Notes under the pieces: model-generated | Seen by the model: the letters and a program-made list of their open reading frames with translations, nothing else | Database searches by the model: none | Told to the model about the DNA's origin: nothing | Assembly: GCA_963769425.1 (NCBI GenBank) | Contig: CAVYLP010000006.1 | Span: 416,001 to 480,000, forward strand | Direction: 5' to 3' | Length of the DNA: 64,000 nucleotides | DNA from: Candidatus Bathyarchaeota archaeon | GTDB lineage: Archaea; Thermoproteota; Bathyarchaeia; TCS64 | Shown here: piece after piece, positions 1-14,995 of the stretch | How positions within the stretch are numbered: the stretch's first letter is position 1 | Layout of the letters: each line of letters begins with the position of its first letter | Translations under genes and position numbers: made by a program

Positions 1-504
1 ATAGCCCGAGACTACGCCGCCTGCAGCGGGTGCAAGCGGTGCGAGTTAGCGTGCAGCATGAAGTTCGAGGGATGGATGTTCCCCGAGGCCTCAATGGTCA
101 GGGTCTTCATGCCCTTCCCCGGCGTCGAGGTACCACACCTCTGCACGCAGTGCGCCGACTACCCCTGCGTCAAATCCTGCGCCCCGAAGGCACTTAGTGT
201 CGACCCCGTCACAACCGCCGTCATCGTAGACAAAGAGAAGTGCATCAGCTGCGGCAGCTGCATAAAGGCGTGCCCCGGCCACGTGCCGTACCTCCACCCG
301 GAGACGAACAAGGTGGTCATATGCAACCTATGCAACGGGGACCCCGAGTGCGTGAAGGTCTGCGTCGAGGCGGGATACAACGCCCTAACCGTCGTCCCGG
401 AGGGACCGAACGTTAACAAGAAGCTCTTCAGCCGGCCCCCCATCGAGGTGGCGAAGGAGCTCGCGGTATTTTTCTTCGGCGAAAAGGGTGAAGAGGTAAT
501 CTAA
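1..504 (+). CDS. Multi-[4Fe-4S] electron-transfer subunit of an AOR-family oxidoreductase (5' truncated by window)
   Basis: Frame is open from base 1 (IARDYAACSGCKRCELACS). Further Cys motifs CTQCADYPCVKSC, CISCGSCIKACP, CNLCNGDPECVKVC. Ends 1 nt before the AOR gene. Confidence 0.9.
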   Translation: MARDYAACSGCKRCELACSMKFEGWMFPEASMVRVFMPFPGVEVPHLCTQCADYPCVKSCAPKALSVDPVTTAVIVDKEKCISCGSCIKACPGHVPYLHPETNKVVICNLCNGDPECVKVCVEAGYNALTVVPEGPNVNKKLFSRPPIEVAKELAVFFFGEKGEEVI

Positions 505-505
505 G

Positions 506-2374
506 ATGCCCGGAGGATACGCTGGAAAGTACCTCGACATCGACCTCACCAAGAGGAAGATCAAGGACACGACCTTCGACGACGAGACGCTTGAGATGTT
601 CTTCGGCGGCCGCGGCCTCGCCGCGAAGATACTCTGGGACCGCCTCGGGAAGAAGTGGGGGGACATAGACTCACTCGGCCCCGAGAACCTCTTCCTCGCC
701 CTCACAGGGCCCATGACGGCCATCTACCCCGGCGCTAGGATAATGTGCTCCGGCAAGAGCCCACTCAGCAACGGCACAGTGGGATCAACCGCCTCAACCG
801 AGTTCGCCTCCGAGATACGGATGGCGGGATACGACGGCGTCATAGTCACCGGGAAGGCGGACGAGCCCGTCTACATCCAAGTAACGAACGATGGCGGGGA
901 GATCAAGAGCGCCAAGCAACTCTGGGGAACCGTTGGCGAAGACACGATAAAGATCCTCAACAGGGAGGTCACAGCGGACCTCACCAAGAAGAAGCCAAAC
1001 ATCGGACTCTGGAAGGAGCCCGGCATCATCTACACCGGCCCAGCCGGGGAGAACATGGTGCGCAACGCCGCGGTGATGACGAAGATCTGCCACGCCTGCG
1101 GCTACGGTGGCTACGGTGCCCTGATGGGGTCGAAGAACCTCAAGGCCATAGTCGCGAAGGGCAGGGGGAGGCTCCCACCGGCCAACGCCCCAGAGGCGAC
1201 CAAGCTCCTCTGGAGGAGGACCCACGAGTATCTCATCAACCAGGGCAGGATGCGCCGCTGGGGCACAGGCTACGGCGGCTACGCCACTGGCGCCGACACC
1301 AGCTCCGAGCCCGTGAAGAACTGGCAGGAGGAGTGGCACGACGACAAGAACATGGGCGGCCCCAAGTTCGAGAACAAGTTCTGGGTCAAGAAGAAGTGGA
1401 GCGACTTCAACTGCACAACCAACTGCATGAAGGTCAGCTGCATAAAGTCTGGGAGATGGAAGGGCGACATCACCGACATGCCAGACTACGAGCTTGAGGC
1501 GTACTGCGGGACCAACCTCGGCATCTTCGATGCAGCAGATAACATCCACATCAGTACCCTGATCGATAAGCTGGGACACAGCGGCATCAACGGCCCCAAC
1601 ACGATGGGTTTCGCAGCCGAGCTCTACCAGAGGGGAATCCTCACCGAGAAAGACTTCGGGTTTAGGCCCATCTGGGGCGACGCCGAGTCTATGGACAAGC
1701 TCGCCTGGCTCATCGCGAAGCGGGAGAAGATCGGGGACATCCTCGCAGAGGGCACCTACCGAGCCGCGATAAAGATCGCGAAGATGAAGAAGATGGAGCC
1801 GGAGGAGCTGCTCAAGTTCGCGGTGCACGTCAAGGGCATCGAGATTGGCGCACACGGCACCCGGAGCGACGCCGACTACACGCATGACATCTCCTACGCC
1901 GCAAGCGTACAGGGCGGGGACCACACCTCCACGACCACAGACGGATTCACCGACATGAGCGGCGCAGTCTTCACCGACTCCGCCGTCTTCTGCAACTTCT
2001 GCTACTTCGCCGTCCCACAGGAGCTCGTCTTCGACTACGCGAAGGCGATAACAGGCTTCCCGATCTCACAAGGCAGCTGGAGGAGCGTCACAGGGCCCAG
2101 GATAGTCACCCTGCAGAAGGTTCTGCTGCTGCTCGGCGGCCCCGACGTGACATGGGAGCCGGTCAAGGACGACGACAACCCGCCGAGGTTCTACGAGCCG
2201 CTCCCGACGGGCCCGTTCAAGGGGAAGACGACCGACCACAAGAAGGTCGACGAGAAGCTACAGACCTACTTCACCACCCTCGGATGGGACAAGATGGGCA
2301 TCCCTACGAAGGAGACGCTGAAGAAGCTGGGCCTGAGCGACTGCGAGACGGCCATGAAGAAGCTGAGGGAGTGA
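506..2374 (+). CDS. Tungsten aldehyde:ferredoxin oxidoreductase family protein, paralog 1
   Basis: GGRGLAAKIL, KSPLS, GPAGEN, GALMGSKNLKAIV, PDYE, DDDNPPRFYEP, GWDKMGIP motifs; 622 aa. Confidence 0.92.
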   Translation: MPGGYAGKYLDIDLTKRKIKDTTFDDETLEMFFGGRGLAAKILWDRLGKKWGDIDSLGPENLFLALTGPMTAIYPGARIMCSGKSPLSNGTVGSTASTEFASEIRMAGYDGVIVTGKADEPVYIQVTNDGGEIKSAKQLWGTVGEDTIKILNREVTADLTKKKPNIGLWKEPGIIYTGPAGENMVRNAAVMTKICHACGYGGYGALMGSKNLKAIVAKGRGRLPPANAPEATKLLWRRTHEYLINQGRMRRWGTGYGGYATGADTSSEPVKNWQEEWHDDKNMGGPKFENKFWVKKKWSDFNCTTNCMKVSCIKSGRWKGDITDMPDYELEAYCGTNLGIFDAADNIHISTLIDKLGHSGINGPNTMGFAAELYQRGILTEKDFGFRPIWGDAESMDKLAWLIAKREKIGDILAEGTYRAAIKIAKMKKMEPEELLKFAVHVKGIEIGAHGTRSDADYTHDISYAASVQGGDHTSTTTDGFTDMSGAVFTDSAVFCNFCYFAVPQELVFDYAKAITGFPISQGSWRSVTGPRIVTLQKVLLLLGGPDVTWEPVKDDDNPPRFYEPLPTGPFKGKTTDHKKVDEKLQTYFTTLGWDKMGIPTKETLKKLGLSDCETAMKKLRE

Positions 2375-4330: not shown

Positions 4331-4606
4331 ATGAAGGTCACAGTACGCGTCTTCGGGGATGTCTCACAGGTCATCGGCAGGAGACACGAGGTTGAGCTCC
4401 AGGAGGGCGCGACTATAACGACGATCGCCGCGAGGGTCGGCGAGAAGACGGGGCAGCGACAGGGCTACCTCGGCGACTTCCACGTCGGGGGCAAGGACCT
4501 AGCCATACTCCTCAACGGTAAGAGCATAGATTTGCTCAACGGCGTCCAGACAAAGCTCAAAGACGGCGACGAGGTCGTCGTCATGCAGCCGACAGCCGGC
4601 GGCTAG
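4331..4606 (+). CDS. MoaD/ThiS/SAMP ubiquitin-like sulfur carrier
   Basis: MKVTVRVFG...ILLNGKSI...LKDGDEVVVMQPTAGG with C-terminal GG; next to AOR genes. Alternative start 4316. Confidence 0.9.
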   Translation: MKVTVRVFGDVSQVIGRRHEVELQEGATITTIAARVGEKTGQRQGYLGDFHVGGKDLAILLNGKSIDLLNGVQTKLKDGDEVVVMQPTAGG

Positions 4607-5085
4607 AGCCTTATTAATACTTCTGCCTCAATCTCCACGGGTAGGCCGAAGGGCAGCTCAGCCATTCCCACCGCGGACCGCGCGTGTTTACCCGCCTCCT
4701 TCCCCCAGACCTCGATAATAAGATCGGAGAACCCGTTGATGACTGCGGGCTGATTTTTAAATCCGGGCGCAGAGTTCACCATCCCGAGGACCTTGAGCCA
4801 CTTCTCGACCCTATCCAAGTCGCCGAGCTCCTGCTTGAGGCTAGCTAGGATAGCCAGCCCCGTGAGGCGCGCCGCATCGTAGGCCTGGTCCTGCGTCACT
4901 TCGCTCCCAACCTTCCCGTACACCTGAGAGAGAGTACCGTCGGGATTCGTCGGACCGTGCCCCGAGACGTATGCCCTGTTCTCGTGCAACCTGACAAAGG
5001 GGAAAGTCTGGCGGAATGAGGCTGGGACCTTCGTAGGTTCCGGGAGAGTTATCCCAAGTTCAGATAGACGCGCTTCGATCCTCAT
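4603..5085 (-). CDS. RidA/YjgF/UK114 family protein
   Basis: YVSGHGP, GFSDL, HARSAVGMAELP, VEIEAEV. Start set at MRIEARL. Confidence 0.9.
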   Translation of the reverse strand: MRIEARLSELGITLPEPTKVPASFRQTFPFVRLHENRAYVSGHGPTNPDGTLSQVYGKVGSEVTQDQAYDAARLTGLAILASLKQELGDLDRVEKWLKVLGMVNSAPGFKNQPAVINGFSDLIIEVWGKEAGKHARSAVGMAELPFGLPVEIEAEVLIRL

Positions 5086-5243
5086 GTAGTTCGATACTGG
5101 TTCCCATCGCACCCCATTTAAAATCACCTGATAAGAACACGAGCCCCGAATGTCAATCTTTTTCCCACACCACAAATCGATATGCAACATGAAACATCTC
5201 GAAGGCTATACCCTTATCAGTCTTCACAATTCTCTGGTATCAG

Positions 5244-7091
5244 GTGATTCAATCCTTGAAGGGCTGGACCGGAAACCTCCTCAGGGTGGACCTCACGAAG
5301 GGGAAAGCCGTCAGGACTGGGTACTCTGAAGAACTCGCCGTGAAGTTCATCGGCGGACGCGGCCTCGCCGTGAAGCTACTCTGGGACGAGTTGAAGCCGG
5401 GGACCGACCCCCTCGGCCCTGACAACATCCTAATCTTCGCCGGAGGCCTCTACGCGGGGCTACCCACGGTCAACAGCGGGAAGATGGTAGTCGCGGCTAA
5501 GAGCCCCCTCACGGGCGGCTACGGCGACGGAAACCTCGGGACGATGGCCTCCCCCAATATGAGGAAGGCCGGCCTCGATGGCATAGTCCTAACCGGCAAA
5601 GCGGCGAAACCAACCTACCTCTGGATAAACGACGACGAAATAGAGTTCAAGAGCGCCTCAGACCTCTGGGGCTTGGATAGCTACGAGACTGAGAGGAAGC
5701 TGAAGAAGGAACACGGTGCCGATACGGGTGTCCTCACTATAGGGCAGAGTGGCGAGAACCTCAGTCGCTTCTCGACTGTCGTCTCTCAGGAGGGGCGAGC
5801 AGGTGGCCGCCCCGGCATGGGCGCCGTAATGGGAAGCAAGAATCTCAAGGCGGTCATTATCAAGGGCACGGGTGAGATACCCGTCGCCGATAAGGAGACC
5901 CTCCAGAAGCTGGGGAGGGAGGGCTTCCAGGACCTCCTCAAGAGGCCCAACTACAAGCACTGGAAGGCACAGGGCACGATGGCCACCGTCGAGTGGTGCC
6001 AGGCGGCCTCGACACTCCCCACCCGTAACTTCAGGGAGGGCGTCTTCGACCACAGCAAGGAGATCGATGGCAACACGATGGAAGCATCCACTGTCAAGCA
6101 GCGCGGCTGCCCCAACTGTAACATGATCTGCGGGAACGTCATCCTCGACACAAACGGTGAGGAGTCGGAGCTTGACTATGAGAACGTCGTTATGCTGGGC
6201 AGCAACATCGGCGTCGGGGACCTCAAGCAGGTGGGACGCCTCAACAGGATGTGCGACATGCTCGGCCTAGACACTATCAGCGCAGGCAGTGCCCTCGGCT
6301 TCGCGATGGAGTGCAGCGAGAAGAAGCTCGTCGAGGGCCTCGACCTCAAGTGGGGCGACTTCGAGGGCTCCCAGAGGCTCCTCGAGGACATGGCCTATAT
6401 GCGTGGACACGGCGCCCTATTCGGAATGGGCACGAAGGTTGCAGCCGAGAAGATCGGCCACGACTCCATTGACTACGCGATGCAGGTGAAGGGCCTAGAG
6501 TGCAGCGCCTACGATTGCCACCTGTGTCCGGGGATGAGCCTCAGTTTCGGCACAAGCCCCATCGGTGCTCACCACAAGGACGCCTGGGTAATCAGCTGGG
6601 AGATCAGCAGCGGCACACGCGAGGAATACGGTCCAGAAAAAGCGGACAAGGTCATCGAGTTCCAGCGCATCCGCGGCGGCATGTTCGAATGCCTCGTAGC
6701 CTGCAGGTTCCCTTGGATCGAGCTCGGCTTCGAGGTCGAGCACTACCCCAAGTACATGGAGGCGGCGACCGGCCTCAAGTGGACCCTCGATGACATGTGG
6801 GCTCTCGGTGACAGGGTCTACGCCCTGATCCGTGCCTTCTGGGTAAGGGAATTTGAGGGCAAATGGGATAGGAAGATGGATTACCCGCCGGAGCGCTGGT
6901 TCAGGGAACCCCTCACTGAGGGCCCCCTCGCGGGGAAGAAGCTGGACAGGGCGAAGTACGACGAGTTGCTCTCCGCCTACTATGAGAAGAGGAGATGGGA
7001 TGACAGAGGCATCCCTACGAGATCCATGATGGTTAGTCTTGGACTCGAGAAGGAAGCTGAGGGACTAAATAAGATAGTAAGTCTCAATTAA
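5244..7091 (+). CDS. Tungsten formaldehyde:ferredoxin oxidoreductase (FOR)-like AOR-family enzyme
   Basis: GDGNLGT, SQEGRAGGRPGMGAVMGSKNLKAV, CPNCNMIC, DYENV, GAHHKDAWVISWEI resemble Thermococcales FOR as recalled. Confidence 0.88.
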   Translation: MIQSLKGWTGNLLRVDLTKGKAVRTGYSEELAVKFIGGRGLAVKLLWDELKPGTDPLGPDNILIFAGGLYAGLPTVNSGKMVVAAKSPLTGGYGDGNLGTMASPNMRKAGLDGIVLTGKAAKPTYLWINDDEIEFKSASDLWGLDSYETERKLKKEHGADTGVLTIGQSGENLSRFSTVVSQEGRAGGRPGMGAVMGSKNLKAVIIKGTGEIPVADKETLQKLGREGFQDLLKRPNYKHWKAQGTMATVEWCQAASTLPTRNFREGVFDHSKEIDGNTMEASTVKQRGCPNCNMICGNVILDTNGEESELDYENVVMLGSNIGVGDLKQVGRLNRMCDMLGLDTISAGSALGFAMECSEKKLVEGLDLKWGDFEGSQRLLEDMAYMRGHGALFGMGTKVAAEKIGHDSIDYAMQVKGLECSAYDCHLCPGMSLSFGTSPIGAHHKDAWVISWEISSGTREEYGPEKADKVIEFQRIRGGMFECLVACRFPWIELGFEVEHYPKYMEAATGLKWTLDDMWALGDRVYALIRAFWVREFEGKWDRKMDYPPERWFREPLTEGPLAGKKLDRAKYDELLSAYYEKRRWDDRGIPTRSMMVSLGLEKEAEGLNKIVSLN

Positions 7092-7240
7092 CCAAAACCT
7101 CCCCCCGCGAGTTTCGGATGTAAGTTTTTCTGAGTAATATTGTTTATCGTTACATTGCTTGAAAAATCACATATATTATGCTATTTATAGTAAAAAAGAC
7201 CTTTTTGTCTCATCTTTATAGTATTTATTTACTGTTTTCT

Positions 7241-7292
7241 AAATTAAATCTTATATAGATTAAGAGCCTGATATTTTTTGCCTAAATGGAGG
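7241..7292 (+). promoter_or_regulatory. BRE/TATA-like promoter and RBS of the four-gene membrane operon
   Basis: A-rich run then TTATATA at 7251-7257 within a ~200-bp very AT-rich intergenic region; GGAGG at 7288-7292 before TTG 7300. Confidence 0.5.
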
Positions 7293-7299
7293 CTAAAGA

Positions 7300-8091
7300 T
7301 TGGCTGTACCGTTTGTAATGGCTACTAGATTCATCGGCTTGGTTATGCTGATAGTTATAATGGGAGCAACGGTTTACTTCACACGGAGGGCACAAAGGGG
7401 GAAGATACAGGCCATCCGACGCATCCCTGGTATCGACGCCATGGATGAGGCGATTGGCCGAGCAGTCGAGATGGGGCGACCGGTCGTCGCCTCTCATGGG
7501 ATAGCTACTCTGAGAGACGCTGCAACCGGTCCCCAGACCATCGCGGGACTCAGCGTCCTTAGTTACATCGCTAAGAAAACTGCTGAAGTTGGTGCAATCC
7601 TGATAGTGCCGGTGAGACAGCCCGAAGTCTGGCCCATAGCCGCGGATATAGTGGAGACGGCCTACAAAATAGCAGGCAAGGCAGAAGATTACAAAGTCGA
7701 GAACATCCGATACCTATCAAATGACCAGTTCGCTTACGCTTCAAACTACATGGGTCTATTGATGAGGGAGAAGCCCGGCGCCAACATCATGATAGGCGCT
7801 TACTGGGCTGAGTCAATGCAGTTAGCGGAGACAGGTTCACGCGTGGGTGCTATGCAGATCTCCGGCACAGCTCAGACCTCACAGATCCCGTTCTTCCTAG
7901 TTGCAACTGACTACTGTCTGATAGGGGAGGAGGTCTTCTCCGCAGGTGCCTACCTAACGAATGATGGCCCAATGATCGGGAGCCTAGCTGGGACCGACGT
8001 GGGGCGCATCATCGCAGTAGCGCTCGGCATACTCGGAGCACTAATGATGACGGCTGGAAGTCAGGCCCTGATTCAGTTCTTCGGATGGTGA
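7300..8091 (+). CDS. Uncharacterised membrane-anchored protein A (DUF6754-like)
   Basis: N- and C-terminal TM helices flank a soluble alpha/beta domain with IRRIPGIDAMDEAIGRAVEMGRP and QIPFFLVATDYCLIGEEVFSAGAYL. DUF assignment from recall. Confidence 0.8.
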   Translation: MAVPFVMATRFIGLVMLIVIMGATVYFTRRAQRGKIQAIRRIPGIDAMDEAIGRAVEMGRPVVASHGIATLRDAATGPQTIAGLSVLSYIAKKTAEVGAILIVPVRQPEVWPIAADIVETAYKIAGKAEDYKVENIRYLSNDQFAYASNYMGLLMREKPGANIMIGAYWAESMQLAETGSRVGAMQISGTAQTSQIPFFLVATDYCLIGEEVFSAGAYLTNDGPMIGSLAGTDVGRIIAVALGILGALMMTAGSQALIQFFGW

Positions 8092-8096
8092 TATGA

Positions 8097-8768
8097 ATGT
8101 CAAATGTCCTTAGAAGAATAGAGATCCCAATAGCGATAACAATCGTGGCAGTCCTCATCCAAGTGATACCTTACTACCTAGATGCTGGAACGACAATAAA
8201 CGCAACCCTGGGTGGGGCGGCGGACTTCATGCAGAGGTGGATGCTTATAGTAATCGCGCTTGCTACGCTCGTTGGAGTCGTTTCTGTTTTCCAGGTTCAC
8301 GGGAAGAATCTACAAAAACGAGGAAAGGACTGGTACTTCAGCATCATCGTCCTAGTTGTAATGGTCATTATGATCGTCGCTGGTCTCCCGATACAGGAGA
8401 TCACACTGGGCCCGACAAATACAGTGTATCTGTTCTTCTTCAACAACTTCTACACACCACTGAGCGGGACGATGTATGCTATCATCGCCTTCTTCATTAC
8501 ATCAGCAGCATTCAGGGCCTTCCGAGCGAGAAATCTTGAGGCAACTCTGGTACTCCTAGCTGGGATCCTGATGGTTGTATCAAATGCTCCTCTTTTTACA
8601 GCGTCGTGGGGGGGCTTCAAAACCATCGGTGATTGGATTATGAATGTACCCAACATGGCTACAATGAGGGCTGTTACGATTGGAATCGCCCTCGGCACGA
8701 TAGCTCTCGCAGTTAGGACCCTGATGGGTATTGAGAGGGGCTATCTCAGAGGAGGAACTGAAGGATAA
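8097..8768 (+). CDS. Uncharacterised polytopic membrane protein B
   Basis: About 6 hydrophobic segments; SAAFRAFRARNLEA; C-terminal GIERGYLRG; tightly coupled to neighbours. Confidence 0.8.
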   Translation: MSNVLRRIEIPIAITIVAVLIQVIPYYLDAGTTINATLGGAADFMQRWMLIVIALATLVGVVSVFQVHGKNLQKRGKDWYFSIIVLVVMVIMIVAGLPIQEITLGPTNTVYLFFFNNFYTPLSGTMYAIIAFFITSAAFRAFRARNLEATLVLLAGILMVVSNAPLFTASWGGFKTIGDWIMNVPNMATMRAVTIGIALGTIALAVRTLMGIERGYLRGGTEG

Positions 8769-9613
8769 TGTCCATCCTGAAGTTCATTACAGATCTGGAC
8801 CGAAGATGGGTCTATCTTCTCTGCTGGATATTCGTCCTATATCCTCTGATCTTCCCTCTAGGGCTACCGATACCTATAGGTAAACAGTCTACGCAATGGT
8901 TCGCAGCTGTTGACGCCGTAAAGCCGGGTAGCACCGTAGTTTTATCACCTATGTATGACCCATCGGCCATACCAGAGTTATTCCCCATGACTATCGCCAC
9001 CTTCCGACACCTACTGACGAAAGATGTGAAAATCGTCGTCGTCACTTTCTGGGCCGCAGGAGCACTGGTGTTCGACCAGGTACTTACCCAGGTCAACCCA
9101 CTGGACTATAATAAGGTGTATGGAACCGACTGGATCGACCTAGGATATATCCCTGGGACCGAAACCGCTATGGCATCGTTCTCGAGGGACCCTGCCGGGA
9201 CGGCTTCTACAGACTTCCTTAAGCATCAACCAACAGCGAGCTACCCCATAATGCAAAACATCAAAACCGCCGCTGATTTCTCCCTGATCATCAGTATCGA
9301 GACCGGAACGCCAGGCGCTGGTGAATGGCTGCGCCAAACACAGGCACCCTACGGCACACCACTCATCGTGGGCTGCGTAGGAGTGTCAGCGCCAGGCATG
9401 ATGCCCTTCGTCCAAGCAGGACAGATTAGCGCACTTCTGCCTGGTCTCACGGCTAGCGCCGAGTATGAGAAGCTCCTTGGCAAGCCTGGACTCGCCATCG
9501 CCGGAGTAGATGCGGTATCAACTTCACACCTTCTGATTGTTCTACTGATAGTGCTTGGCAACATAGCATACTTCGCATCGAGGGGCCCCAAGGGCTCCAA
9601 GGGAGGTAAATGA
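8768..9613 (+). CDS. Uncharacterised membrane-anchored protein C
   Basis: DRRWVYLL TM helix, ~200-aa soluble domain, C-terminal TM and basic tail; TAATG overlap with B. Confidence 0.8.
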   Translation: MSILKFITDLDRRWVYLLCWIFVLYPLIFPLGLPIPIGKQSTQWFAAVDAVKPGSTVVLSPMYDPSAIPELFPMTIATFRHLLTKDVKIVVVTFWAAGALVFDQVLTQVNPLDYNKVYGTDWIDLGYIPGTETAMASFSRDPAGTASTDFLKHQPTASYPIMQNIKTAADFSLIISIETGTPGAGEWLRQTQAPYGTPLIVGCVGVSAPGMMPFVQAGQISALLPGLTASAEYEKLLGKPGLAIAGVDAVSTSHLLIVLLIVLGNIAYFASRGPKGSKGGK

Positions 9614-9614
9614 C

Positions 9615-10349
9615 ATGGTTGACTTAATCGCAGTCTGGGCTGGGGTCTTCCTAACCCTCGCGATCTACAGCATCCTATACAGGGAGAGCCCCTGGTACAG
9701 GATAGCGGAATCCGTATACCTCGGCGTCGCTGTCGGCTACGGTGTCTCGCTTGACCTAGTCTACGTTCGGAACCAGTGGGAGACCGGAGGATGGTCATCC
9801 GGACCGATGCTGATTGGTTTCGCACTGGCTGCGATCCTCGGAATCCTCTGGTACCTAAGGTTTGCTAAATCATACTTCTACCTATACAGGTGGCCCCTTG
9901 CCGTCGTCGTTGGAACCGGATTAGGCCTAACGCTAAGAACCGTAGTTTTCACACAGTTCACGACGCAGATCCTAGCCCAGGCGAAGCTCAACCTTTACTT
10001 ACCCAGCGATCCACTGACTTGGTTCAACAATATACTGATGTTCATAATGGTGCCTTCTGTACTCCTCTACTTCTGGTTCACGGGAGTGGGTGTGAGGCAG
10101 GGTACTACGATGAAGATCATCGACCAGTTGGCCAGGTACATCATGATGGTGGGTTTCGGCGCATCCTTCGGCTACACCATCCTGACCAGATACGCCCTCC
10201 TAATCGGCAGGGCGCAGTACCTACTCGGCATAGTACCAAACCCGCCAGAGAACTTCACCGCATCCATCGTGATAGCAGCGGTGATCCTCATATCACTGTT
10301 CGGCTACGACTTCATGAAGAGAGGGAAAAGCACAGTAACACCTGCATAA
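9615..10349 (+). CDS. Uncharacterised polytopic membrane protein D
   Basis: About 7 hydrophobic segments with repeated GxxxG-type helices; GGAGG RBS upstream. Confidence 0.8.
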   Translation: MVDLIAVWAGVFLTLAIYSILYRESPWYRIAESVYLGVAVGYGVSLDLVYVRNQWETGGWSSGPMLIGFALAAILGILWYLRFAKSYFYLYRWPLAVVVGTGLGLTLRTVVFTQFTTQILAQAKLNLYLPSDPLTWFNNILMFIMVPSVLLYFWFTGVGVRQGTTMKIIDQLARYIMMVGFGASFGYTILTRYALLIGRAQYLLGIVPNPPENFTASIVIAAVILISLFGYDFMKRGKSTVTPA

Positions 10350-10351
10350 CC

Positions 10352-10366
10352 ATTCCTCTTTTTTTT
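10352..10366 (+). terminator. Oligo-T terminator candidate of the membrane operon
   Basis: ATTCCTC followed by a T run after the stop, between convergent genes. Confidence 0.45.
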
Positions 10367-10374
10367 AAAAAGAT

Positions 10375-10791
10375 CTATTTCTTTGAGGTTATCGTGTACT
10401 TCACACCGAGTGGCTTGAGCACCTCATCGATCTTCTGAATGAGGGAGTTCAACTGGTCTACGGTTGGCTCCCTATACCATTCGAAGAAGAAGTCGTAGTC
10501 ACCCAGATGCTCACCGGACTTACTCACCAGCTTCCCGCACCTCTCTTCAGAGATGTTTTCCTTCAATGGAACAAAGTACTCCATCGCCTCAGACGATCCG
10601 GAGGTCGTCGACGTACTTGGGTCGGGTTCATTGTCAACCGAGAAGTATGTCCGGATTAGGGGGTCCATGATGCAGACCTCATTGAAGTCTATGGCCATCT
10701 TCTCGAGAGCCTTAATCGCATCATATACGGGTGGTCCGTAGATTTTTATATAACTCTTCAACACTTTCACCAAATTTATGATTGGAATCAC
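10375..10791 (-). CDS. Hypothetical protein
   Basis: 138-aa ORF filling the gap with globular composition; the true start may be slightly downstream. Confidence 0.6.
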   Translation of the reverse strand: MIPIINLVKVLKSYIKIYGPPVYDAIKALEKMAIDFNEVCIMDPLIRTYFSVDNEPDPSTSTTSGSSEAMEYFVPLKENISEERCGKLVSKSGEHLGDYDFFFEWYREPTVDQLNSLIQKIDEVLKPLGVKYTITSKK

Positions 10792-10867
10792 TTATTATAA
10801 ATCTAACCTAAGAGTCGCCCATTTATTACCGAATCTGTTAAACCACTTTACTGCCGTTTAGCTACCA

Positions 10868-12052
10868 GTGAACCAAATGCTAGCCATCAAGGGTGGGAAG
10901 ATTCTAACCATCACGAAGGGTATAATCGACAACGGCATCGTCCTCGTAGAGAATGGGAAGATCAAGGCCGTCGGCGTGGACGTGAAGATTCCGGCCGACG
11001 CCAAGGTGATTAATGCTAACCGGAAGGTTGTGATGCCCGGCCTCGTCGAGGCCCACTGCCACATCGGCATCACGGAGGAGACCGCCGGCTGGTCTGGGAG
11101 CGACGATAACGAAGCGATGGAGCCCATCACGCCCCAGATGAGGGCGATAGATGGCATAAAGGCGAATGCCGACGAGAAGGGGCTCGAGGCGGCGCTCATG
11201 ACGGGGATTACGACGGCACAGATTCTCCCCGGGAGCGCGAACGTGATCGGCGGAACGGGCGTCGTCGTGAAGACCGCCCCGAAGGTCGTCGTGGACGAAA
11301 TGATCGTCAAGAATCCCTCCGGTATGAAGGTGGCCTTTGGTGAGAACCCCCGGCGGGTCTACGGCGTGGAGTTGAAGAAGATACCGAGCACCCGCATGGG
11401 GGAGGCGGCCCTACTCAGGGAGTGGCTTAACCGGGCCCTACTCTACTCAGAGAAGAAGAAAGCCGCCATAGCACAGAAGGACCCCATAAAGATGCCTGAC
11501 GCCGACCCGAGGCTCGAGGCGCTGCAACCAGTCATCAACAAAGAGATTCCCCTAAGAGTGCACGCCCACAGGGCCGACGACGTCGCCACAGCGGTGAGAA
11601 TATGCGAGGAGTTCGGCCTCGAGATGAGCTGGGAGCACGCCACGGAGGGGCACAGGGTCGCCAAGTGGCTCGCCGAGAAGAAGATCTCAGCCGTCTGGGG
11701 ACCCAGCCTCGTAGCGAGGAGGAAGTGGGAGATGAGGGAGCTGAGTTTCGACACCCCGAGGATCCTCCACGAGGCCAAGGTGCACTTCGCCATCCAGACG
11801 GACGCGGTGGGGAGTACGATTGCCTTCCTCCCGATATGCGCCGGACTCGCCTGCCGTGACGGCCTGCCCTACGAGGAGGCGCTCAAGTCCATTACGATCA
11901 ACTCGGCCGAGATAATTGGCGTCGGGGACAGGGTGGGGAGCCTCGAGAAGGGCAAGGACGCGGACATACGGATACTCACCGGTGACCCCCTTGAGCTGAA
12001 GACGAAGGTGGAGAAGGTTATAATCAACGGCGAGCTCGCTTGGAGCCGTTAG
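10868..12052 (+). CDS. Metal-dependent amidohydrolase
   Basis: VMPGLVEAHCHIG (HxH), KVAFGENP, HAHRADD, RVGSLEKGKDAD. Confidence 0.9.
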   Translation: MNQMLAIKGGKILTITKGIIDNGIVLVENGKIKAVGVDVKIPADAKVINANRKVVMPGLVEAHCHIGITEETAGWSGSDDNEAMEPITPQMRAIDGIKANADEKGLEAALMTGITTAQILPGSANVIGGTGVVVKTAPKVVVDEMIVKNPSGMKVAFGENPRRVYGVELKKIPSTRMGEAALLREWLNRALLYSEKKKAAIAQKDPIKMPDADPRLEALQPVINKEIPLRVHAHRADDVATAVRICEEFGLEMSWEHATEGHRVAKWLAEKKISAVWGPSLVARRKWEMRELSFDTPRILHEAKVHFAIQTDAVGSTIAFLPICAGLACRDGLPYEEALKSITINSAEIIGVGDRVGSLEKGKDADIRILTGDPLELKTKVEKVIINGELAWSR

Positions 12053-12791
12053 CCACGATACCGCGTATCTTCATCTGTTTTAAACTTGGAGCCGCGGGCG
12101 TAAGCTCCACTCTGAAGTTGGCGAGTCTCTCCAGCTGCCCGTCGAATTCCGCGATGAAGCTCGGGAGGGCGAGGACTGAGACGGTGGGGACCCGCCTGTA
12201 GATCTCCATGGGGGTCGCTGATAGAGTCAGTACCATGGGCACCAAGGTTGCCCTCGTCCAGCTCTCTATGCCTATTCGCCCGTTTAGAGTCTCTACGTAC
12301 CGCGAGAATACCTCTGTCTTATCGAGGTGTGTCTCGACTATCCCCCGGGCCGTCTGGTTGCCCATTCCCTTCCTCCAATGCTTGCATTCGGCGCAGACAA
12401 GGTAGGGGGCCCTCATAGCGAGGAGGTCTATCTCCCACCTCCTCCCCTCAGCCGTGAACCTGAACCGCCGCAGGACGCGGAACCTGTTCTCCTCGAGAAC
12501 CTTCGCGGATATCTCCTCGAACTCCTTCCACCCGAGGCTCCTGCTGACGGACTCGAAGTCGGCCCCCGCCTCCACCGCTTTCGTGGCGAGTTGTAGGCGC
12601 TGGTCGAGGCTCAGGGTGATTCGACTACCCTCGACGGTTATCATATCCAGCTCGCTGAGCTGGCCCAGGACGCCCTCCAGTGCCTCCGAGGTGATCCTCA
12701 TTGAGCCTCGGAGTTTCTCGACCTCCACCGACTCGTCATTCGTGAGGGCGAGGAGTCGAGTGAGCACGAGGCGTAGGGGAGCAGATTCCAT
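12024..12791 (-). CDS. wHTH plus PD-(D/E)XK restriction-endonuclease-like protein
   Basis: WKEFEE...WEIDLLA...CAECKHW catalytic pattern. Start set at MESAPL because the longer ORF overlaps the opposite-strand deacetylase. Confidence 0.7.
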   Translation of the reverse strand: MESAPLRLVLTRLLALTNDESVEVEKLRGSMRITSEALEGVLGQLSELDMITVEGSRITLSLDQRLQLATKAVEAGADFESVSRSLGWKEFEEISAKVLEENRFRVLRRFRFTAEGRRWEIDLLAMRAPYLVCAECKHWRKGMGNQTARGIVETHLDKTEVFSRYVETLNGRIGIESWTRATLVPMVLTLSATPMEIYRRVPTVSVLALPSFIAEFDGQLERLANFRVELTPAAPSLKQMKIRGIVANGSKRARR

Positions 12792-12884
12792 CTCCTCATC
12801 TCGTGACGCGCGGGAGATGAGGGTTTCCCCGCGCCACTCGAAGGTTTCATATCCGCACCCACCGCTACTTCCCCCGGTGAATTG

Positions 12885-13667
12885 ATGGGTTTCTGGCCAA
12901 AGGGCTACAAGAGCTGCTTCTTCCTCAGCTTCGATTACGACGCTTCTAGCGCCGAGACTTGGAAGACCCCCGACGATCTCTCGTCGCTTAGCAAGGGGCG
13001 GTACGCACCGCGCGTCGCCGTCCCTAGGATACTCAACCTCCTCGACAGACTCGAGATAAAGACTACCTTTTTCACGCCTGGGTGGACCTGCGACAACCAC
13101 CCTGACTCGATCGCAGACATCGTGAGCCACGGTCACGAGATCGCCGCGCATAGCTACGCCCACGAGAAGATGACGGAGCTGACGGCTGAGAAGGAGGCAG
13201 AGGTTTGGGAGAAGAGCATAGCCGCGTTAGAACGTGTAGGCGTCAAACCGCAGGGCTACCGAGCCCCCTACTGGATGTTCGGGGAGCGCAGCATCAACCA
13301 CATGAAGAGGCTCGGGTTCAAGTACAGTAGCAACATGATGGACGAGGACATGCCGTATATGCTCGAACACAAGGGGAAGCCCACGGGGCTCGTCGAGCTT
13401 CCTGTTGAGTGGCTCCTCGACGACTGGCCCCACTTCGAGATGGACAGGATGGGACCTGAGGAGGTCTACAAGCTGTGGAAGCCGGAGTGGGAGGGGTTGC
13501 ATGGGCTCGGGCGGTGCTTCGGTCTGACCTGCCATCCCGAGTGCATTGGGAGGGTTAGCCGTATCAAGATGCTTGAGAGGCTCGTCTCAGAAGCGAAGGA
13601 GGGGGGCGACGTCTGGTTCCCGACGGGTAAGGAGCTCGCCGACTGGACGAGGAAGAAGCTCAAGTGA
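12885..13667 (+). CDS. Polysaccharide deacetylase family (PuuE/PgdA-like)
   Basis: LSFDYD, TFFTPG, HEIAAHSYAHE, GYRAPYW, LVELPVEWLLDDW, CHPECIGR. Confidence 0.88.
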   Translation: MGFWPKGYKSCFFLSFDYDASSAETWKTPDDLSSLSKGRYAPRVAVPRILNLLDRLEIKTTFFTPGWTCDNHPDSIADIVSHGHEIAAHSYAHEKMTELTAEKEAEVWEKSIAALERVGVKPQGYRAPYWMFGERSINHMKRLGFKYSSNMMDEDMPYMLEHKGKPTGLVELPVEWLLDDWPHFEMDRMGPEEVYKLWKPEWEGLHGLGRCFGLTCHPECIGRVSRIKMLERLVSEAKEGGDVWFPTGKELADWTRKKLK

Positions 13668-13669
13668 GG

Positions 13670-14623
13670 CTAGTTTAGGCTGAGCCAGCCCCTCATGTAA
13701 AAGAATATGCCGAGGAAAGTCATCGTCAGGATGCTTATTGTTATCTCGGCAATGGGGGGTGCTCCTGCTCTTGCCCCGGTTATGTTGACGCCGAGGAGTG
13801 TGCTGAACAGGGAGGGCACGCCGATGATCACGGTGAGGGCCGCTATGAGCCTCATGGTCTTGTTTAGGTCGTGGCTAAGCGTGTCCATGTGCAGTCCTAT
13901 GAGATCTTGCATCGTCTCATGGGTCACCTCAGTGGTTTCCACAGCCCCGGTTGCGCGCTCGTATAGCCCGTCGAACATCCTCTTCTCTAGCTCATTTATA
14001 CCGAGTTCGGTGTGGTTGTCTGTCAGCGCCTCGGTGAGTCTCTTGAGGTGGCGGAGCTGGCGGAGGAGGCTGCTCGCCTCGCGCCTTATCACGAAGGCGT
14101 CCATGTATGCGCTCCTCGGCCACGGTGGGTTCTGGTCCTCCAGCTTCTCGGCCTGGGTTTCGAAGCTGTCGACGAAGTACTCGTAGGACTCTAGTACATG
14201 GTCTAGGGTCAGGTAGATCACGCGGGCGGTGTTGGAGAGGGAGGCGTAGCGGGGGGAGTCATAGTATAGGGCGATCTTGTCGCTGAGACCCGTCCAAGAG
14301 CGGCTGATGCTCACGACGCTGTGCCCGTTTGTGAAGGCGATGACGGGGGCCATGTCGCTCGTAATGTCCGTTCCCAGTCCCTTCGTGTTGAGGTACCAGG
14401 CGAAGACCTTCGTGTACTCGGGGTAGGAGTCGACGTGCGGGTAGTTGCTGCTGAGCTTCCCTATGAGGGAGTTGCGGGGGACCTTAATGGCTGTCGCCAG
14501 CTTCTCGAGGTCCTCGACGCTGGGATCTGTCACGTCGAACCATAGCTTCTTCCTGTGATCGGCGACGAGTTCCTCCAGGCTGGATTCTGAGAGCGCCCCG
14601 TCGCGCCCGACCCTGATCCTCAT
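13670..14623 (-). CDS. CorA-family divalent cation transporter
   Basis: Long soluble domain, LNKTMRLIA, two C-terminal TMs, GVN in place of the GMN signature. Confidence 0.85.
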   Translation of the reverse strand: MRIRVGRDGALSESSLEELVADHRKKLWFDVTDPSVEDLEKLATAIKVPRNSLIGKLSSNYPHVDSYPEYTKVFAWYLNTKGLGTDITSDMAPVIAFTNGHSVVSISRSWTGLSDKIALYYDSPRYASLSNTARVIYLTLDHVLESYEYFVDSFETQAEKLEDQNPPWPRSAYMDAFVIRREASSLLRQLRHLKRLTEALTDNHTELGINELEKRMFDGLYERATGAVETTEVTHETMQDLIGLHMDTLSHDLNKTMRLIAALTVIIGVPSLFSTLLGVNITGARAGAPPIAEITISILTMTFLGIFFYMRGWLSLN

Positions 14624-14686
14624 GTGGCTCAGGTTTGAGGTGCTGGATCTTAATTGATTAACTTGTCGGGGTTTGAAGGGGGTGAT

Positions 14687-14995
14687 TTATGCTATCATGT
14701 CCCTCGGGGGGCCTTTATCTTGGGGCATTGGTACGAATCCCATCTCCTCCATGTTGCCTCTGGCGATGTCTAGGACCTCACTGACGAGAGCGACGAGGGT
14801 CTTATCGTCGAGGGTCGTTATCTGGTCCCGCTTCAGCTTTGGTTCTACTAGGCACTGTGAGAGTACCTCAGCGACGACATCCTTGCTCTCCCTCTCCTCT
14901 GCGTTGGCTGAGCCTAGCTTGACAAGTTCCTCAAAGGTTAGGCCGCGCACCGTGAATCTGGCGCTCCCCAGATCGATGATCTTGTTTCTAGGCAT
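14687..14995 (-). CDS. Hypothetical protein, weak resemblance to phage tail assembly chaperones
   Basis: 102 aa, acidic; FTVRGLTFEEL...CLVEPKL pattern. Confidence 0.5.
   Translation of the reverse strand: MPRNKIIDLGSARFTVRGLTFEELVKLGSANAEERESKDVVAEVLSQCLVEPKLKRDQITTLDDKTLVALVSEVLDIARGNMEEMGFVPMPQDKGPPRDMIA

What the first reader, a model, noticed from the sequence alone, without database searches (positions are those of the whole stretch)
7300..10349. Four-gene membrane operon built as a duplicated module with opposite topology: candidate new transporter class
Seen: four translationally coupled membrane genes A-B-C-D with their own promoter and terminator candidates, and no ATPase or recognisable transporter motif. 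By eye A and C are colinear TM-soluble-TM proteins (A: DEAIGRAVEMGRPVVAS, ENIRYLSNDQFAYAS, GSLAGTDVGRIIAVALGILG; C: FAAVDAVKPGSTVVLS, DLGYIPGTETAMAS, GLAIAGVDAVSTSHLLIVLLIVLG). B and D share a C-terminal pattern (MRAVTIGIALGTIALAVRTLMGIERGYLRG vs ARYIMMVGFGASFGYTILTRYALLIGRAQYLLG). By the positive-inside rule, A has RRAQRGK..RR after TM1 (domain cytoplasmic), while C has DRR before TM1 and a Lys-rich tail (domain outside). Established: inverted-topology repeats are typical of alternating-access secondary transporters. Inference: AB and CD form a pseudo-symmetric complex with a soluble domain on each membrane face, possibly importing peptides or amino acids, given the adjacent amidohydrolase and AORs.
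Basis: partly seen in the sequence, partly recalled or inferred. Interest (0 to 1): 0.85.

Follow-up and report, generated by a model that had tools for sequence, protein, structure and literature searches.

The report
Widespread uncharacterised four-gene membrane module
Four tightly packed membrane-protein genes form a cassette of unknown function that keeps the same gene order across many archaea and bacteria, usually sits near peptide-degrading enzymes, and may be a new kind of nutrient uptake system.

Summary
Four packed ORFs, A 7300-8091, B 8097-8768, C 8768-9613 and D 9615-10349, lie between an AT-rich spacer and a T8 run. A is Pfam DUF6754. B, C and D match no Pfam, NCBIfam or PDB sequence.

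The cassette is not a local oddity:
- This genome holds four paralogous A-B-C-D cassettes.
- In 80 loci from species-representative genomes of many archaeal and bacterial phyla, 83 of 96 A genes are followed by B, C and D in order. Eleven more are cut by contig ends.
- Some Bacillota carry up to 23 matches to the A (DUF6754) profile.

The 'duplicated inverted module' idea is half supported:
- A and C both model as TM-Rossmann-like-TM with the same order of secondary-structure elements.
- Charge bias places their soluble domains on opposite membrane faces: A inside, C outside.
- Profile similarity between A and C is weak but above controls (E 6e-4 to 5e-3).
- B and D show nothing above reversed-sequence noise.

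These often lie next to it.

Neighbours that I scanned are rich in peptidases and amidohydrolases. My best reading is a substrate-specific uptake module for peptide-derived compounds. Function is inferred, not shown.

The parts
7092..7299 (+). AT-rich spacer with candidate archaeal promoter (TTATATA 7251-7257) and GGAGG 7288-7292 ahead of the A start
   Evidence: Sequence read. The 7000-7499 bin has GC 0.42. Promoter function is inferred, not shown.
7300..8091 (+). Gene A: DUF6754 protein, 263 aa. N-terminal TM, cytoplasmic Rossmann-like domain, C-terminal TM. It is the most conserved subunit.
   Evidence: Pfam PF20539, E 2e-80. AF2 pLDDT 87.4. Mean column identity 51%. Charge bias places the domain inside.
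8097..8768 (+). Gene B: polytopic membrane protein, 223 aa, about 6 TM, N-in and C-in. No known family.
   Evidence: No Pfam hit. Loop K+R alternates 1.89/0.76/3.64/0.62/2.78/1.08/1.27 over 113 sequences. Long variants carry a roughly 390-aa insert in the outside loop after TM3.
8768..9613 (+). Gene C: 281 aa. N-terminal TM, extracytoplasmic Rossmann-like domain, C-terminal TM, Lys/Arg-rich tail. No known family.
   Evidence: No Pfam or NCBIfam hit. AF2 pLDDT 89.5. 4846 clusters at 50% identity match its profile. Charge bias.
9615..10349 (+). Gene D: polytopic membrane protein, 244 aa, 6 core TM plus one extra C-terminal TM in this subgroup. No known family.
   Evidence: No Pfam hit. Loops 83-95 and 157-171 are K/R-rich, so inside. 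The orientation of the N-terminus is uncertain.
10359..10366 (+). T8 run: candidate archaeal oligo-T terminator, 10 nt after the D stop
   Evidence: Function is inferred.
5244..7091 (+). Context: aldehyde:ferredoxin oxidoreductase directly upstream, conserved in this position in the orthologous subgroup
   Evidence: Pfam AFOR_N and AFOR_C. An AOR precedes A in own1, L013-L017 and L033.
10375..10791 (-). Context: small soluble protein of 138 aa with no family, convergent with D. Relatives lie beside two other cassettes.
   Evidence: No Pfam or NCBIfam hit. Cluster 14 holds own1, own3 and L017.
10868..12052 (+). Context: amidohydrolase, 394 aa
   Evidence: Pfam Amidohydro_1 and Amidohydro_3. Found in the same position in L014, L016 and L017.

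Best explanation
A, B, C and D are the subunits of one conserved integral-membrane module, and this window holds one of four paralogous copies in the genome. B and D, each with about 6 TM segments, form the membrane core. C holds a Rossmann-like domain on the outer face between two TM anchors. A holds a similar, much more conserved Rossmann-like domain on the cytoplasmic face.

I read the module as a substrate-specific uptake unit for peptide- or amino-acid-derived compounds. In that reading C, together with the variable outer add-on domains in relatives, captures the ligand, B and D form the path, and A couples or regulates. A may do so by docking a shared cytoplasmic module that is encoded elsewhere in this genome: a small protein (s7), a GlmL-like ASKHA ATPase and a barrel-sandwich protein (BSH).

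Shown here: gene order, family size, folds, charge-based orientation, and co-occurrence with the ATPase module. Inferred: physical assembly, transport, substrate class and energy source.
For: Conserved unit:
- Four cassettes in the same order in this genome.
- 83 of 96 A genes in 80 loci from many phyla are followed by B, C and D in order, and 11 more are cut by contig ends.
- Median gaps are 13, 3 and 1 nt.

Size of the family:
- At least 579 loci in species-representative genomes.
- 4846 clusters at 50% identity match the C profile.

Architecture:
- AF2 models of A and C.

Orientation:
- Family-wide charge counts.
- All accessory domains sit on the predicted outer side. These are the long N-terminal extensions of A, which include one with BamB-like beta-propeller repeats; inserts in B after TM3, one of them with FG-GAP repeats; and an insert with HEAT-repeat Pfam hits in C.

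Transporter-like population biology:
- 1 to 23 DUF6754 matches per genome in one Bacillota class.
- 11 in one relative.
- 2-3 tandem cassettes behind a single ATPase module.

Link to the ATPase module:
- s7/GlmL-like/BSH lie in 29 of 80 loci, and in 13 of the 29 loci that have at least 5 kb on both sides.
- BSH was present elsewhere in 5 of 5 genomes whose fetched locus lacked it.
- Among 41 Bathyarchaeia-like relatives: both 28, neither 9, discordant 4, the discordant ones all 62-84% complete.
- Among 101 Bacillota: both 40, neither 55, DUF6754 only 1, BSH only 5.

Peptide context among the neighbours I scanned:
- Amidohydrolases, Peptidase_M14, M29-like and Creatininase beside the four own cassettes.
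- Amidohydro_1, OppD/F-type ABC ATPase, GcvP and a TonB-dependent receptor in bacterial loci.
- Peptidase_S58, C26 and M55 beside GlmL/BSH modules.
Against: - No subunit resembles any characterised transporter by sequence, and neither A nor C does by fold.
Their fold is unknown.
- Physical assembly is not demonstrated.
- No fused A-B, B-C or C-D protein was found in two length-shifted searches. This is weak evidence, as only 8000 candidates were scored in each.
- This window's cassette has no ATPase module beside it.
- GlmL/BSH could instead be a cytoplasmic enzyme pair that merely shares a pathway with the module.
- Related genomes are not independent, so the co-occurrence tables overstate support.
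- High conservation of A (51% mean column identity, with conserved charged residues) would also fit an enzyme.
Confidence: 0.42

Rival explanations
1. AB and CD are two halves of an ancient duplication inserted in opposite orientations. They form a pseudo-symmetric, ATP-independent secondary transporter that works by alternating access.
For: - A and C share their secondary-structure order and fold class.
- The hhalign A/C alignment is colinear and the same in three runs: E 0.0048, 6.4e-4 and 0.0018, against 0.076-0.13 for reversed targets.
- 89 of its 121 columns agree with the independent DSSP states, falling to 24-65 of 121 at shifts of 5 or more residues. A shift of -3 still gives 88 of 121.
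- A and C face opposite sides.
- B is N-in. D is probably N-out if its weak second segment spans the membrane.
- The window operon has no ATPase.
Against: - B versus D is not above noise. The best hit, E 0.0058, pairs B 9-99 with D 92-185 and is not colinear. Reversed controls on membrane halves reach E 8e-5 to 8e-4.
- hhalign probability for A versus C is only 7-28%.
- The genome-level tie to a GlmL-like ATPase module argues against full independence from ATP.
- Known inverted-repeat transporters have the repeat inside the membrane domain, not in flanking soluble domains. This point is from my own knowledge.
Confidence: 0.2
2. ABCD is the membrane part of a larger machine of 7 to 10 genes (s7, one or two GlmL-like/BSH pairs, a DUF483-like protein). 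Its job would not be small-solute import. Candidates are assembly or anchoring of surface structures, export, or transmembrane signalling from outer ligand-binding domains to the cytoplasmic ATPase.
For: - Variable outer add-ons typical of surface binding: long N-terminal extensions on A, a PQQ_2/BamB-type propeller, and FG-GAP repeats.
- A is highly conserved, as a docking platform would be.
- The supercluster GlmL2-BSH2-s7-GlmL-BSH-DUF483-like occurs in a Bacillota genome.
- ASKHA ATPases are not known transporter motors. This point is from my own knowledge.
Against: - Up to 23 DUF6754 matches per genome against one to a few BSH genes looks like a family of substrate-specific modules rather than one machine.
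- The cassette occurs in monoderm bacteria, diderm bacteria and archaea, so it does not depend on envelope type.
- The neighbours are catabolic enzymes, not envelope genes.
Confidence: 0.2
3. ABCD is a membrane-bound enzyme complex. The conserved Rossmann-like domain of A, and perhaps that of C, would be catalytic on peptide- or amide-type substrates at the membrane. GlmL/BSH would be a partner enzyme.
For: - Invariant charged and glycine residues in A (R40, E50, R54, E57, G67, K127, G189-T190, D204, E210-E211). Several lie at the ends of predicted strands, where Rossmann-like enzymes bind ligands. That last statement is from my own knowledge.
- GlmL relatives resemble hydantoinases.
- Amidohydrolases are among the neighbours.
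Against: - There is no match to any enzyme family.
- Two polytopic subunits with conserved Gly- and Pro-rich helices are more easily explained as a translocation path.
Confidence: 0.1

Closest known systems
Pfam DUF6754 (PF20539)
   Same: Gene A is a full-length member: E 2e-80, profile positions 7-256 of 257.
   Different: The family is only a domain of unknown function. Full-text searches for DUF6754 and PF20539 found 0 papers. It says nothing about B, C or D.
Paired opposite-orientation membrane proteins (paired small multidrug resistance proteins, Fluc/CrcB pairs); recalled, not tested against those families
   Same: Neighbouring genes whose products show opposite K+R bias (A versus C; B versus probably D).
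   Different: In those systems the partners are clearly homologous small all-membrane proteins. Here A/C similarity is sub-significant and B/D similarity is not detectable. In addition, the mirrored element is a soluble domain held between two TM helices.
RCK/KTN (TrkA-type) regulatory domains of K+ transporters
   Different: - The matches are tied with many unrelated Rossmann-like folds.
- No TrkA Pfam hit.
- The loop after the first strand of A reads without a GxGxxG motif.
- C's domain is outside the cell, where no RCK domain is known (recalled).
ECF transporters with a shared energising module and many substrate-specific membrane components (an analogy of organisation; recalled)
   Same: One or a few copies of a cytoplasmic ATPase module per genome, with many scattered or tandem membrane cassettes.
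   Different: The ATPase here is a GlmL-like ASKHA protein (Pfam MutL PF13941), not an ABC ATPase. The membrane unit has four subunits with no similarity to EcfT or S components in any Pfam scan.
GlmL/MutL accessory protein of glutamate mutase, and the GlmL-related ornithine-degradation protein
   Same: The linked ATPase matches Pfam MutL at E 3e-116 to 4e-123.
   Different: - It scores 207-219 bits against NCBIfam equivalog cut-offs of 475-600.
- It is about 150 aa longer than those models.
- It is paired with a barrel-sandwich protein that has no family at all.
- It is not in this window.

Membership tests
Pfam DUF6754 | Match to the profile above the gathering score (27 bits) | tested here: met
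   A scores 269.9 bits, E 2.3e-80. B, C and D have no hit.
Opposite-orientation homologous pairs (dual-topology type) | The partners are homologous (A with C) | tested here: inconclusive
   hhalign E 0.0048, 6.4e-4 and 0.0018, probability 7-28%, same colinear alignment each time. Reversed controls give E 0.076-0.13. The two models have the same secondary-structure order, with 214 of 291 columns identical. No direct 3D superposition was possible.
Opposite-orientation homologous pairs (dual-topology type) | The partners are homologous (B with D) | tested here: not met
   Best E is 0.0058 and the alignment is not colinear. Reversed-target controls reach E 8e-5. The folds were not modelled, so structural likeness remains open.
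Opposite-orientation homologous pairs (dual-topology type) | Opposite K+R bias between the partners | tested here: met
   A versus C is clear over 117 and 110 sequences. B is N-in. D's N-terminus is uncertain.
Known secondary or primary transporter families (MFS, APC/LeuT, ABC, TRAP, TTT, PTS) | Sequence match of a membrane subunit to a family model | tested here: not met
   No Pfam or NCBIfam family passes for B, C or D. Profile searches against PDB sequences were empty. ESM Atlas neighbours are all 'hypothetical protein'.
Known secondary or primary transporter families | Transporter fold of the polytopic subunits | not tested
ABC transporter | ABC ATPase gene in the operon | tested here: not met
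   No ABC_tran hit among the four genes or their immediate neighbours in the window. OppD/F-type genes next to some bacterial cassettes look like a separate system.
RCK/KTN domain | TrkA-type profile match and a glycine-rich dinucleotide loop | tested here: not met
GlmL family (linked ATPase in paralogous loci, not in the window) | Pfam MutL match; NCBIfam equivalog cut-off | tested here: inconclusive
   The Pfam match is met at E 3e-116. The NCBIfam equivalog and subfamily cut-offs are not reached. This looks like a distinct branch of the family.

The most novel reading that the evidence does not exclude
This would be a new class of importer found in both archaea and bacteria. Many interchangeable four-subunit membrane modules would each be built from two mirror-oriented halves: A plus B with a domain inside, and C plus D with a domain outside. 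All of them would be served by one shared motor or processing unit based on a GlmL-like ASKHA ATPase. No known transporter uses that kind of ATPase (my own knowledge).
Probability: 0.18. Interest if true: 0.95.

Novelty: categorically new. Interest (0 to 1): 0.78.

Why it matters
- **Scale.** The cassette is abundant: thousands of sequence clusters, hundreds of species-level genomes, and up to 23 DUF6754 matches per genome. It occurs in uncultured sediment and digester lineages (Bathyarchaeia, Methanomethylicia, Cloacimonadota, Zixibacteria, WOR-3, Fermentibacteria and many Bacillota).
- **Annotation gap.** Three of its four proteins have no family model, and every A homologue that a source named is called 'hypothetical protein'.
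- **If it is an uptake system.** Carbon and nitrogen budgets inferred for these organisms would be missing a major route for peptide-derived compounds.
- **If it works with the ASKHA ATPase.** It would add a new principle of transport energisation.
- **Whatever the function.** It offers a clean natural case of two similar anchored domains placed on opposite membrane faces.

Tried and rejected
- **BLASTP** of A versus C and B versus D found nothing, E about 1.
- **Profile searches against PDB sequences** for A, B, C, D, BSH and the GlmL-like protein found nothing below E 0.2.
- **Foldseek against PDB** gave no hit at E <= 1e-3 for A or C.
- **VIA-align wide search** gave only generic Rossmann-like hits.
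- **Complex prediction** of A+B+C+D with D as partner returned 'no answer'. The score was 0.74, but a control with C replaced scored 0.60. I count it neither for nor against binding.
- **Local HMM cross-searches** among about 5300 ORFs showed A and C enriched in each other's weak tails, but so were other membrane proteins. I rejected this as composition bias.
- **Internal 3+3 TM repeats in B and D** gave E around 1e-3, no better than reversed controls.
- **Searches for fused forms** found only insert-bearing C (1 hit) and B (6 hits), with no A-B, B-C or C-D fusion.
- **Per-member Pfam scans** of B, C and D found no family shared by more than 5 of the 23-24 members scanned.
- **The weak TraX hit for B** in NCBIfam (E 2e-4, far under the cut-off) was not reproduced elsewhere.
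- **Literature searches:**
  - DUF6754, PF20539 and PF13941 gave 0 papers each.
  - 'GlmL' alone gave unrelated papers, judged from the listing only.
  - GlmL with 'glutamate mutase' and 'ATPase' gave 0.
  - 'DUF483' matched other DUF numbers, again from the listing only.
  - No paper was read.
- **Expression.** Sequencing runs held only 10-14% of the sampled words. Contigs of one Nanopore RNA library cover 7394-8272 at 90-99% likeness. One RNA run laid nothing. Two 'probably DNA' runs cover most of the four genes and none of the flanks. This is no proof of transcription or of operon ends.
- **The sigma-70 and hairpin scan** was uninformative.
- **An anti-phage defence reading** was considered and dropped without a PADLOC scan, because of the catabolic context and the copy numbers.


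Full report
**What is in the window**

The ORF listing gives four + strand ORFs with almost no space between them:
- A 7300-8091, 263 aa, TTG start
- B 8097-8768, 223 aa
- C 8768-9613, 281 aa
- D 9615-10349, 244 aa

The junctions are a 5-nt gap, a 1-nt overlap and a 1-nt gap.

Upstream is a 208-nt AT-rich spacer. The 7000-7499 bin has GC 0.42, against about 0.60 in the flanking genes. GGAGG lies 7 nt before the TTG, and there is a TTATATA box. ATG 7318 is an alternative start. Ten bases after the D stop comes a T8 run, which is the usual look of an archaeal terminator. The bacterial-type scan is uninformative.

The upstream gene is an aldehyde:ferredoxin oxidoreductase. Downstream lie a small protein with no family, on the other strand, and an amidohydrolase. 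The closest named relatives of A are Bathyarchaeia/Bathyarchaeota MAG proteins at up to 77% identity, and an unnamed cluster reaches 95%. The organism is therefore probably a Bathyarchaeia archaeon.

**Family status**

A is a full-length Pfam DUF6754 protein, E 2e-80. For B, C and D I found nothing informative:
- No Pfam family and no NCBIfam family above cut-off.
- No family shared by more than 5 of the 23-24 relatives scanned per family.
- No PDB sequence by profile search.
- Only 'hypothetical protein' clusters in the ESM Atlas for B and D.

All 120 listed A homologues that carry a name are 'hypothetical protein'. Full-text searches for DUF6754, PF20539 and PF13941 returned no paper.

**The cassette is real and very widespread**

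- tblastn of A-D on the window's own genome finds four cassettes, all in the order A-B-C-D, at 30-41% identity.
- DUF6754 is found in 30 of 41 related genomes, usually in several copies and 11 in one.
- In 20 fetched regions plus the own genome there are 28 A genes. All are followed by B, C and D in order except two. One is cut by a contig end, and in the other D was missed by BLASTP at 1e-3.
- A scan of one genome per species found at least 579 loci. The best 80 come from Bathyarchaeia, Methanomethylicia, other Thermoproteota and Nitrososphaerota. They also come from Bacillota, Zixibacteria, Cloacimonadota, Ignavibacteria, WOR-3, Fermentibacteria, Eisenbacteria, Acidobacteriota, Gemmatimonadota, Armatimonadota and others.
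- Those 80 loci hold 96 A genes. Of these, 83 are followed by B, C and D in order, 11 are cut by contig ends, and 2 are ORF-calling artefacts. In 2 loci my HMM called no A.
- Median gaps are 13, 3 and 1 nt.
- A profile of C matches 4846 clusters at 50% identity, 3649 of them at E <= 1e-10.
- In a sample of 101 genomes from one Bacillota class, 41 carry DUF6754, with 1 to 23 matches each.

**Are A and C alike?**

BLASTP sees nothing. Profile-profile comparison gives the same colinear alignment in three runs. It runs from TM1 through the first three strands of the soluble domain, A 8-147 against C 11-136.

| Alignments used | E-value | Probability |
|---|---|---|
| 23-28 sequences | 0.0048 | 7% |
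| 98-117 sequences | 6.4e-4 | 28% |
| 150 extra diverse C representatives | 0.0018 | 15% |

Reversed-target controls give E 0.076-0.13, and the other subunit pairs give 0.06-0.64.

The AF2 models are confident: A has pLDDT 87.4 and pTM 0.81, C has pLDDT 89.5 and pTM 0.85. Both read TM helix, helix, six strand-helix units, TM helix. The hhalign alignment puts the same DSSP state in 89 of 121 columns. Shifting the register by 5 or more residues drops this to 24-65 of 121, although a shift of -3 still gives 88. The two DSSP strings align end to end with 214 of 291 columns identical, and C carries one insertion of about 30 residues.

So the two proteins have the same architecture and fold class. 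Common descent is plausible but not proven. I could not superpose the two models directly.

**Orientation**

Family-wide counts over 117 A and 110 C sequences:

| Segment | K+R | Net charge |
|---|---|---|
| A, 15 residues after TM1 | 4.67 | +3.9 |
| C, N-terminus | 3.39 | +1.3 |
| C, tail | 3.65 | +2.75 |
| C, flanks of its domain | not given | -0.5 and -0.9 |

By the positive-inside rule, A's domain is cytoplasmic and C's is outside.

Accessory domains give independent support:
- 59 of 117 A homologues have 90 or more residues before TM1. The examples I read begin like signal peptides, and 35 of the 59 carry a PND.G-like motif. One has BamB-type propeller repeats.
- Insert-bearing B proteins carry about 390 extra residues in the loop after TM3, which I predict to be outside. 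One B has FG-GAP repeats.
- One C protein has a 325-residue insert in its domain.

Every accessory domain therefore lies on the predicted outer side.

B shows a clean alternation of loop K+R (1.89/0.76/3.64/0.62/2.78/1.08/1.27), so it is N-in and C-in with 6 TM segments. D has K/R-rich loops at 83-95 and 157-171. It is N-out if its weakly hydrophobic second segment spans the membrane. That point is open.

**B versus D**

The best profile hit is E 0.0058. It pairs the first half of B with the second half of D. Splitting both proteins into halves gives E about 1e-3 for some pairs. Reversed-sequence controls on the same halves reach E 8e-5 to 8e-4. I therefore treat B/D similarity as not shown.

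In many loci the cassette is flanked by three further genes:
- a small protein of about 115-140 aa, which I call s7
- a 600-630 aa protein matching Pfam MutL (PF13941, E 3e-116 to 4e-123). This is the GlmL-type ASKHA ATPase family. The protein stays below the NCBIfam equivalog cut-offs.
- a protein of about 375-400 aa with only a weak barrel-sandwich (Biotin_lipoyl/RnfC_N) hit and no other family or PDB match, which I call BSH

Where this module lies:
- It is in 29 of the 80 loci, and in 13 of the 29 loci that have at least 5 kb on both sides.
- Several loci show one module followed by two or three tandem ABCD cassettes.
- In this genome two of the four cassettes have it nearby. The window's cassette does not.
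- For five genomes whose fetched cassette lacked it, a full-length BSH orthologue was found elsewhere in all five.

Presence and absence agree across genomes:

| Sample | Both | Neither | DUF6754 only | BSH only |
|---|---|---|---|---|
| 41 relatives | 28 | 9 | 2 | 2 |
| 101 Bacillota | 40 | 55 | 1 | 5 |

The four discordant relatives are MAGs that are 62-84% complete. Relatives are not independent, so these tables are indicative only. BSH orthologues are one to a few per genome, while DUF6754 matches reach 23. That pattern suggests a shared cytoplasmic module serving many membrane modules. It could equally be an enzyme pair in the same pathway.

**Context**

Among the roughly 60 neighbours I could scan, peptide- and amide-cleaving enzymes recur:
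- Beside the four own cassettes: amidohydrolases, a Peptidase_M14, an M29-like peptidase and a Creatininase-family protein.
- In bacterial loci: Amidohydro_1, OppD/F-type ATPases, glycine dehydrogenase and a TonB-dependent receptor.
- Beside GlmL/BSH modules: Peptidase_S58, C26 and M55.

The window's orthologous subgroup always has an AOR just upstream. This was a hand-picked sample, not an enrichment test.

**Reading**

I commit to a four-subunit uptake module for peptide-derived compounds (0.42). C and the variable outer domains would bind ligand, B and D would form the path, and A would be the cytoplasmic coupling domain. A may work with the shared GlmL-like module.

The rivals are:
- a non-transport membrane machine or sensor (0.2)
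- a membrane-bound enzyme complex (0.1)

Assembly, transport, substrate and energy source are all inferred. The complex-prediction job gave no verdict. No fused forms were found. The read data do not establish transcription.

**Novelty**

Nothing I could search places B, C or D in any family, or the whole cassette in any described system. A is only a DUF. The architecture has two similar anchored domains on opposite faces, two polytopic subunits and an ASKHA-type partner module. I know of no characterised counterpart.

I therefore rate the finding as categorically new in kind. The caveat is that its function is unknown, and the folds of B and D remain to be modelled.

Noticed in passing
window 10375-10791 (-): A small soluble protein of 138 aa with no Pfam or NCBIfam hit. 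Relatives lie next to two other cassettes: the own-genome copy on contig C4, and locus L017.
   Followed up: partly
L116 (G043:C3:178000-196000), 7914-14807 (-): A Bacillota supercluster: a second, paralogous GlmL-like/BSH-like pair (633 and 452 aa), then s7, the GlmL-like protein, BSH and a DUF483-like protein. Peptidase_S58 and Peptidase_C26 lie upstream. In many genomes of that class, BSH lies 9-10 kb from a DUF6754 gene on the same strand.
   Followed up: partly
genome handles G082, G127, G095, G043 and G136: Extreme expansion of the cassette: 13 to 23 DUF6754 matches in genomes of 2-4 Mb.
   Followed up: no
L038:3054-4250, L065:9512-10795, L061:8282-10741: Bacterial A proteins carry an N-terminal signal-like start plus an extra domain of about 100 aa with a conserved PNDAGG-like motif. 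Some carry 300-550 extra residues, and in L061 these hold PQQ_2/BamB-type propeller repeats.
   Followed up: partly
L019, L022-L026, L037, L041, L044, L047; own genome L113:538-933: A small membrane protein of about 130-150 aa (about four hydrophobic stretches by eye) recurs beside archaeal cassettes, often in divergent pairs. Its only hit is a weak HlyIII match (E 1e-4, below cut-off).
   Followed up: partly
rows such as G003:C143:5686-6612 and G015:C2:463702-464628: Shorter BSH-like matches of about 300 aa in Bathyarchaeia relatives. Several have one or two in-frame stop codons. They may be pseudogenes or a separate paralogue.
   Followed up: no
L115:4785-6552 (own genome, contig C3): Two tandem DUF4438 genes lie about 1.5 kb downstream of D in another own-genome cassette.
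   Followed up: no
window 117-1985 region of the own1 slice (upstream of 5244) and 4603-5190 (-): A second AOR-like ORF and a RidA/YjgF-family gene lie just upstream of the AOR that precedes A. The same trio is found in the orthologous loci L014-L017.
   Followed up: partly
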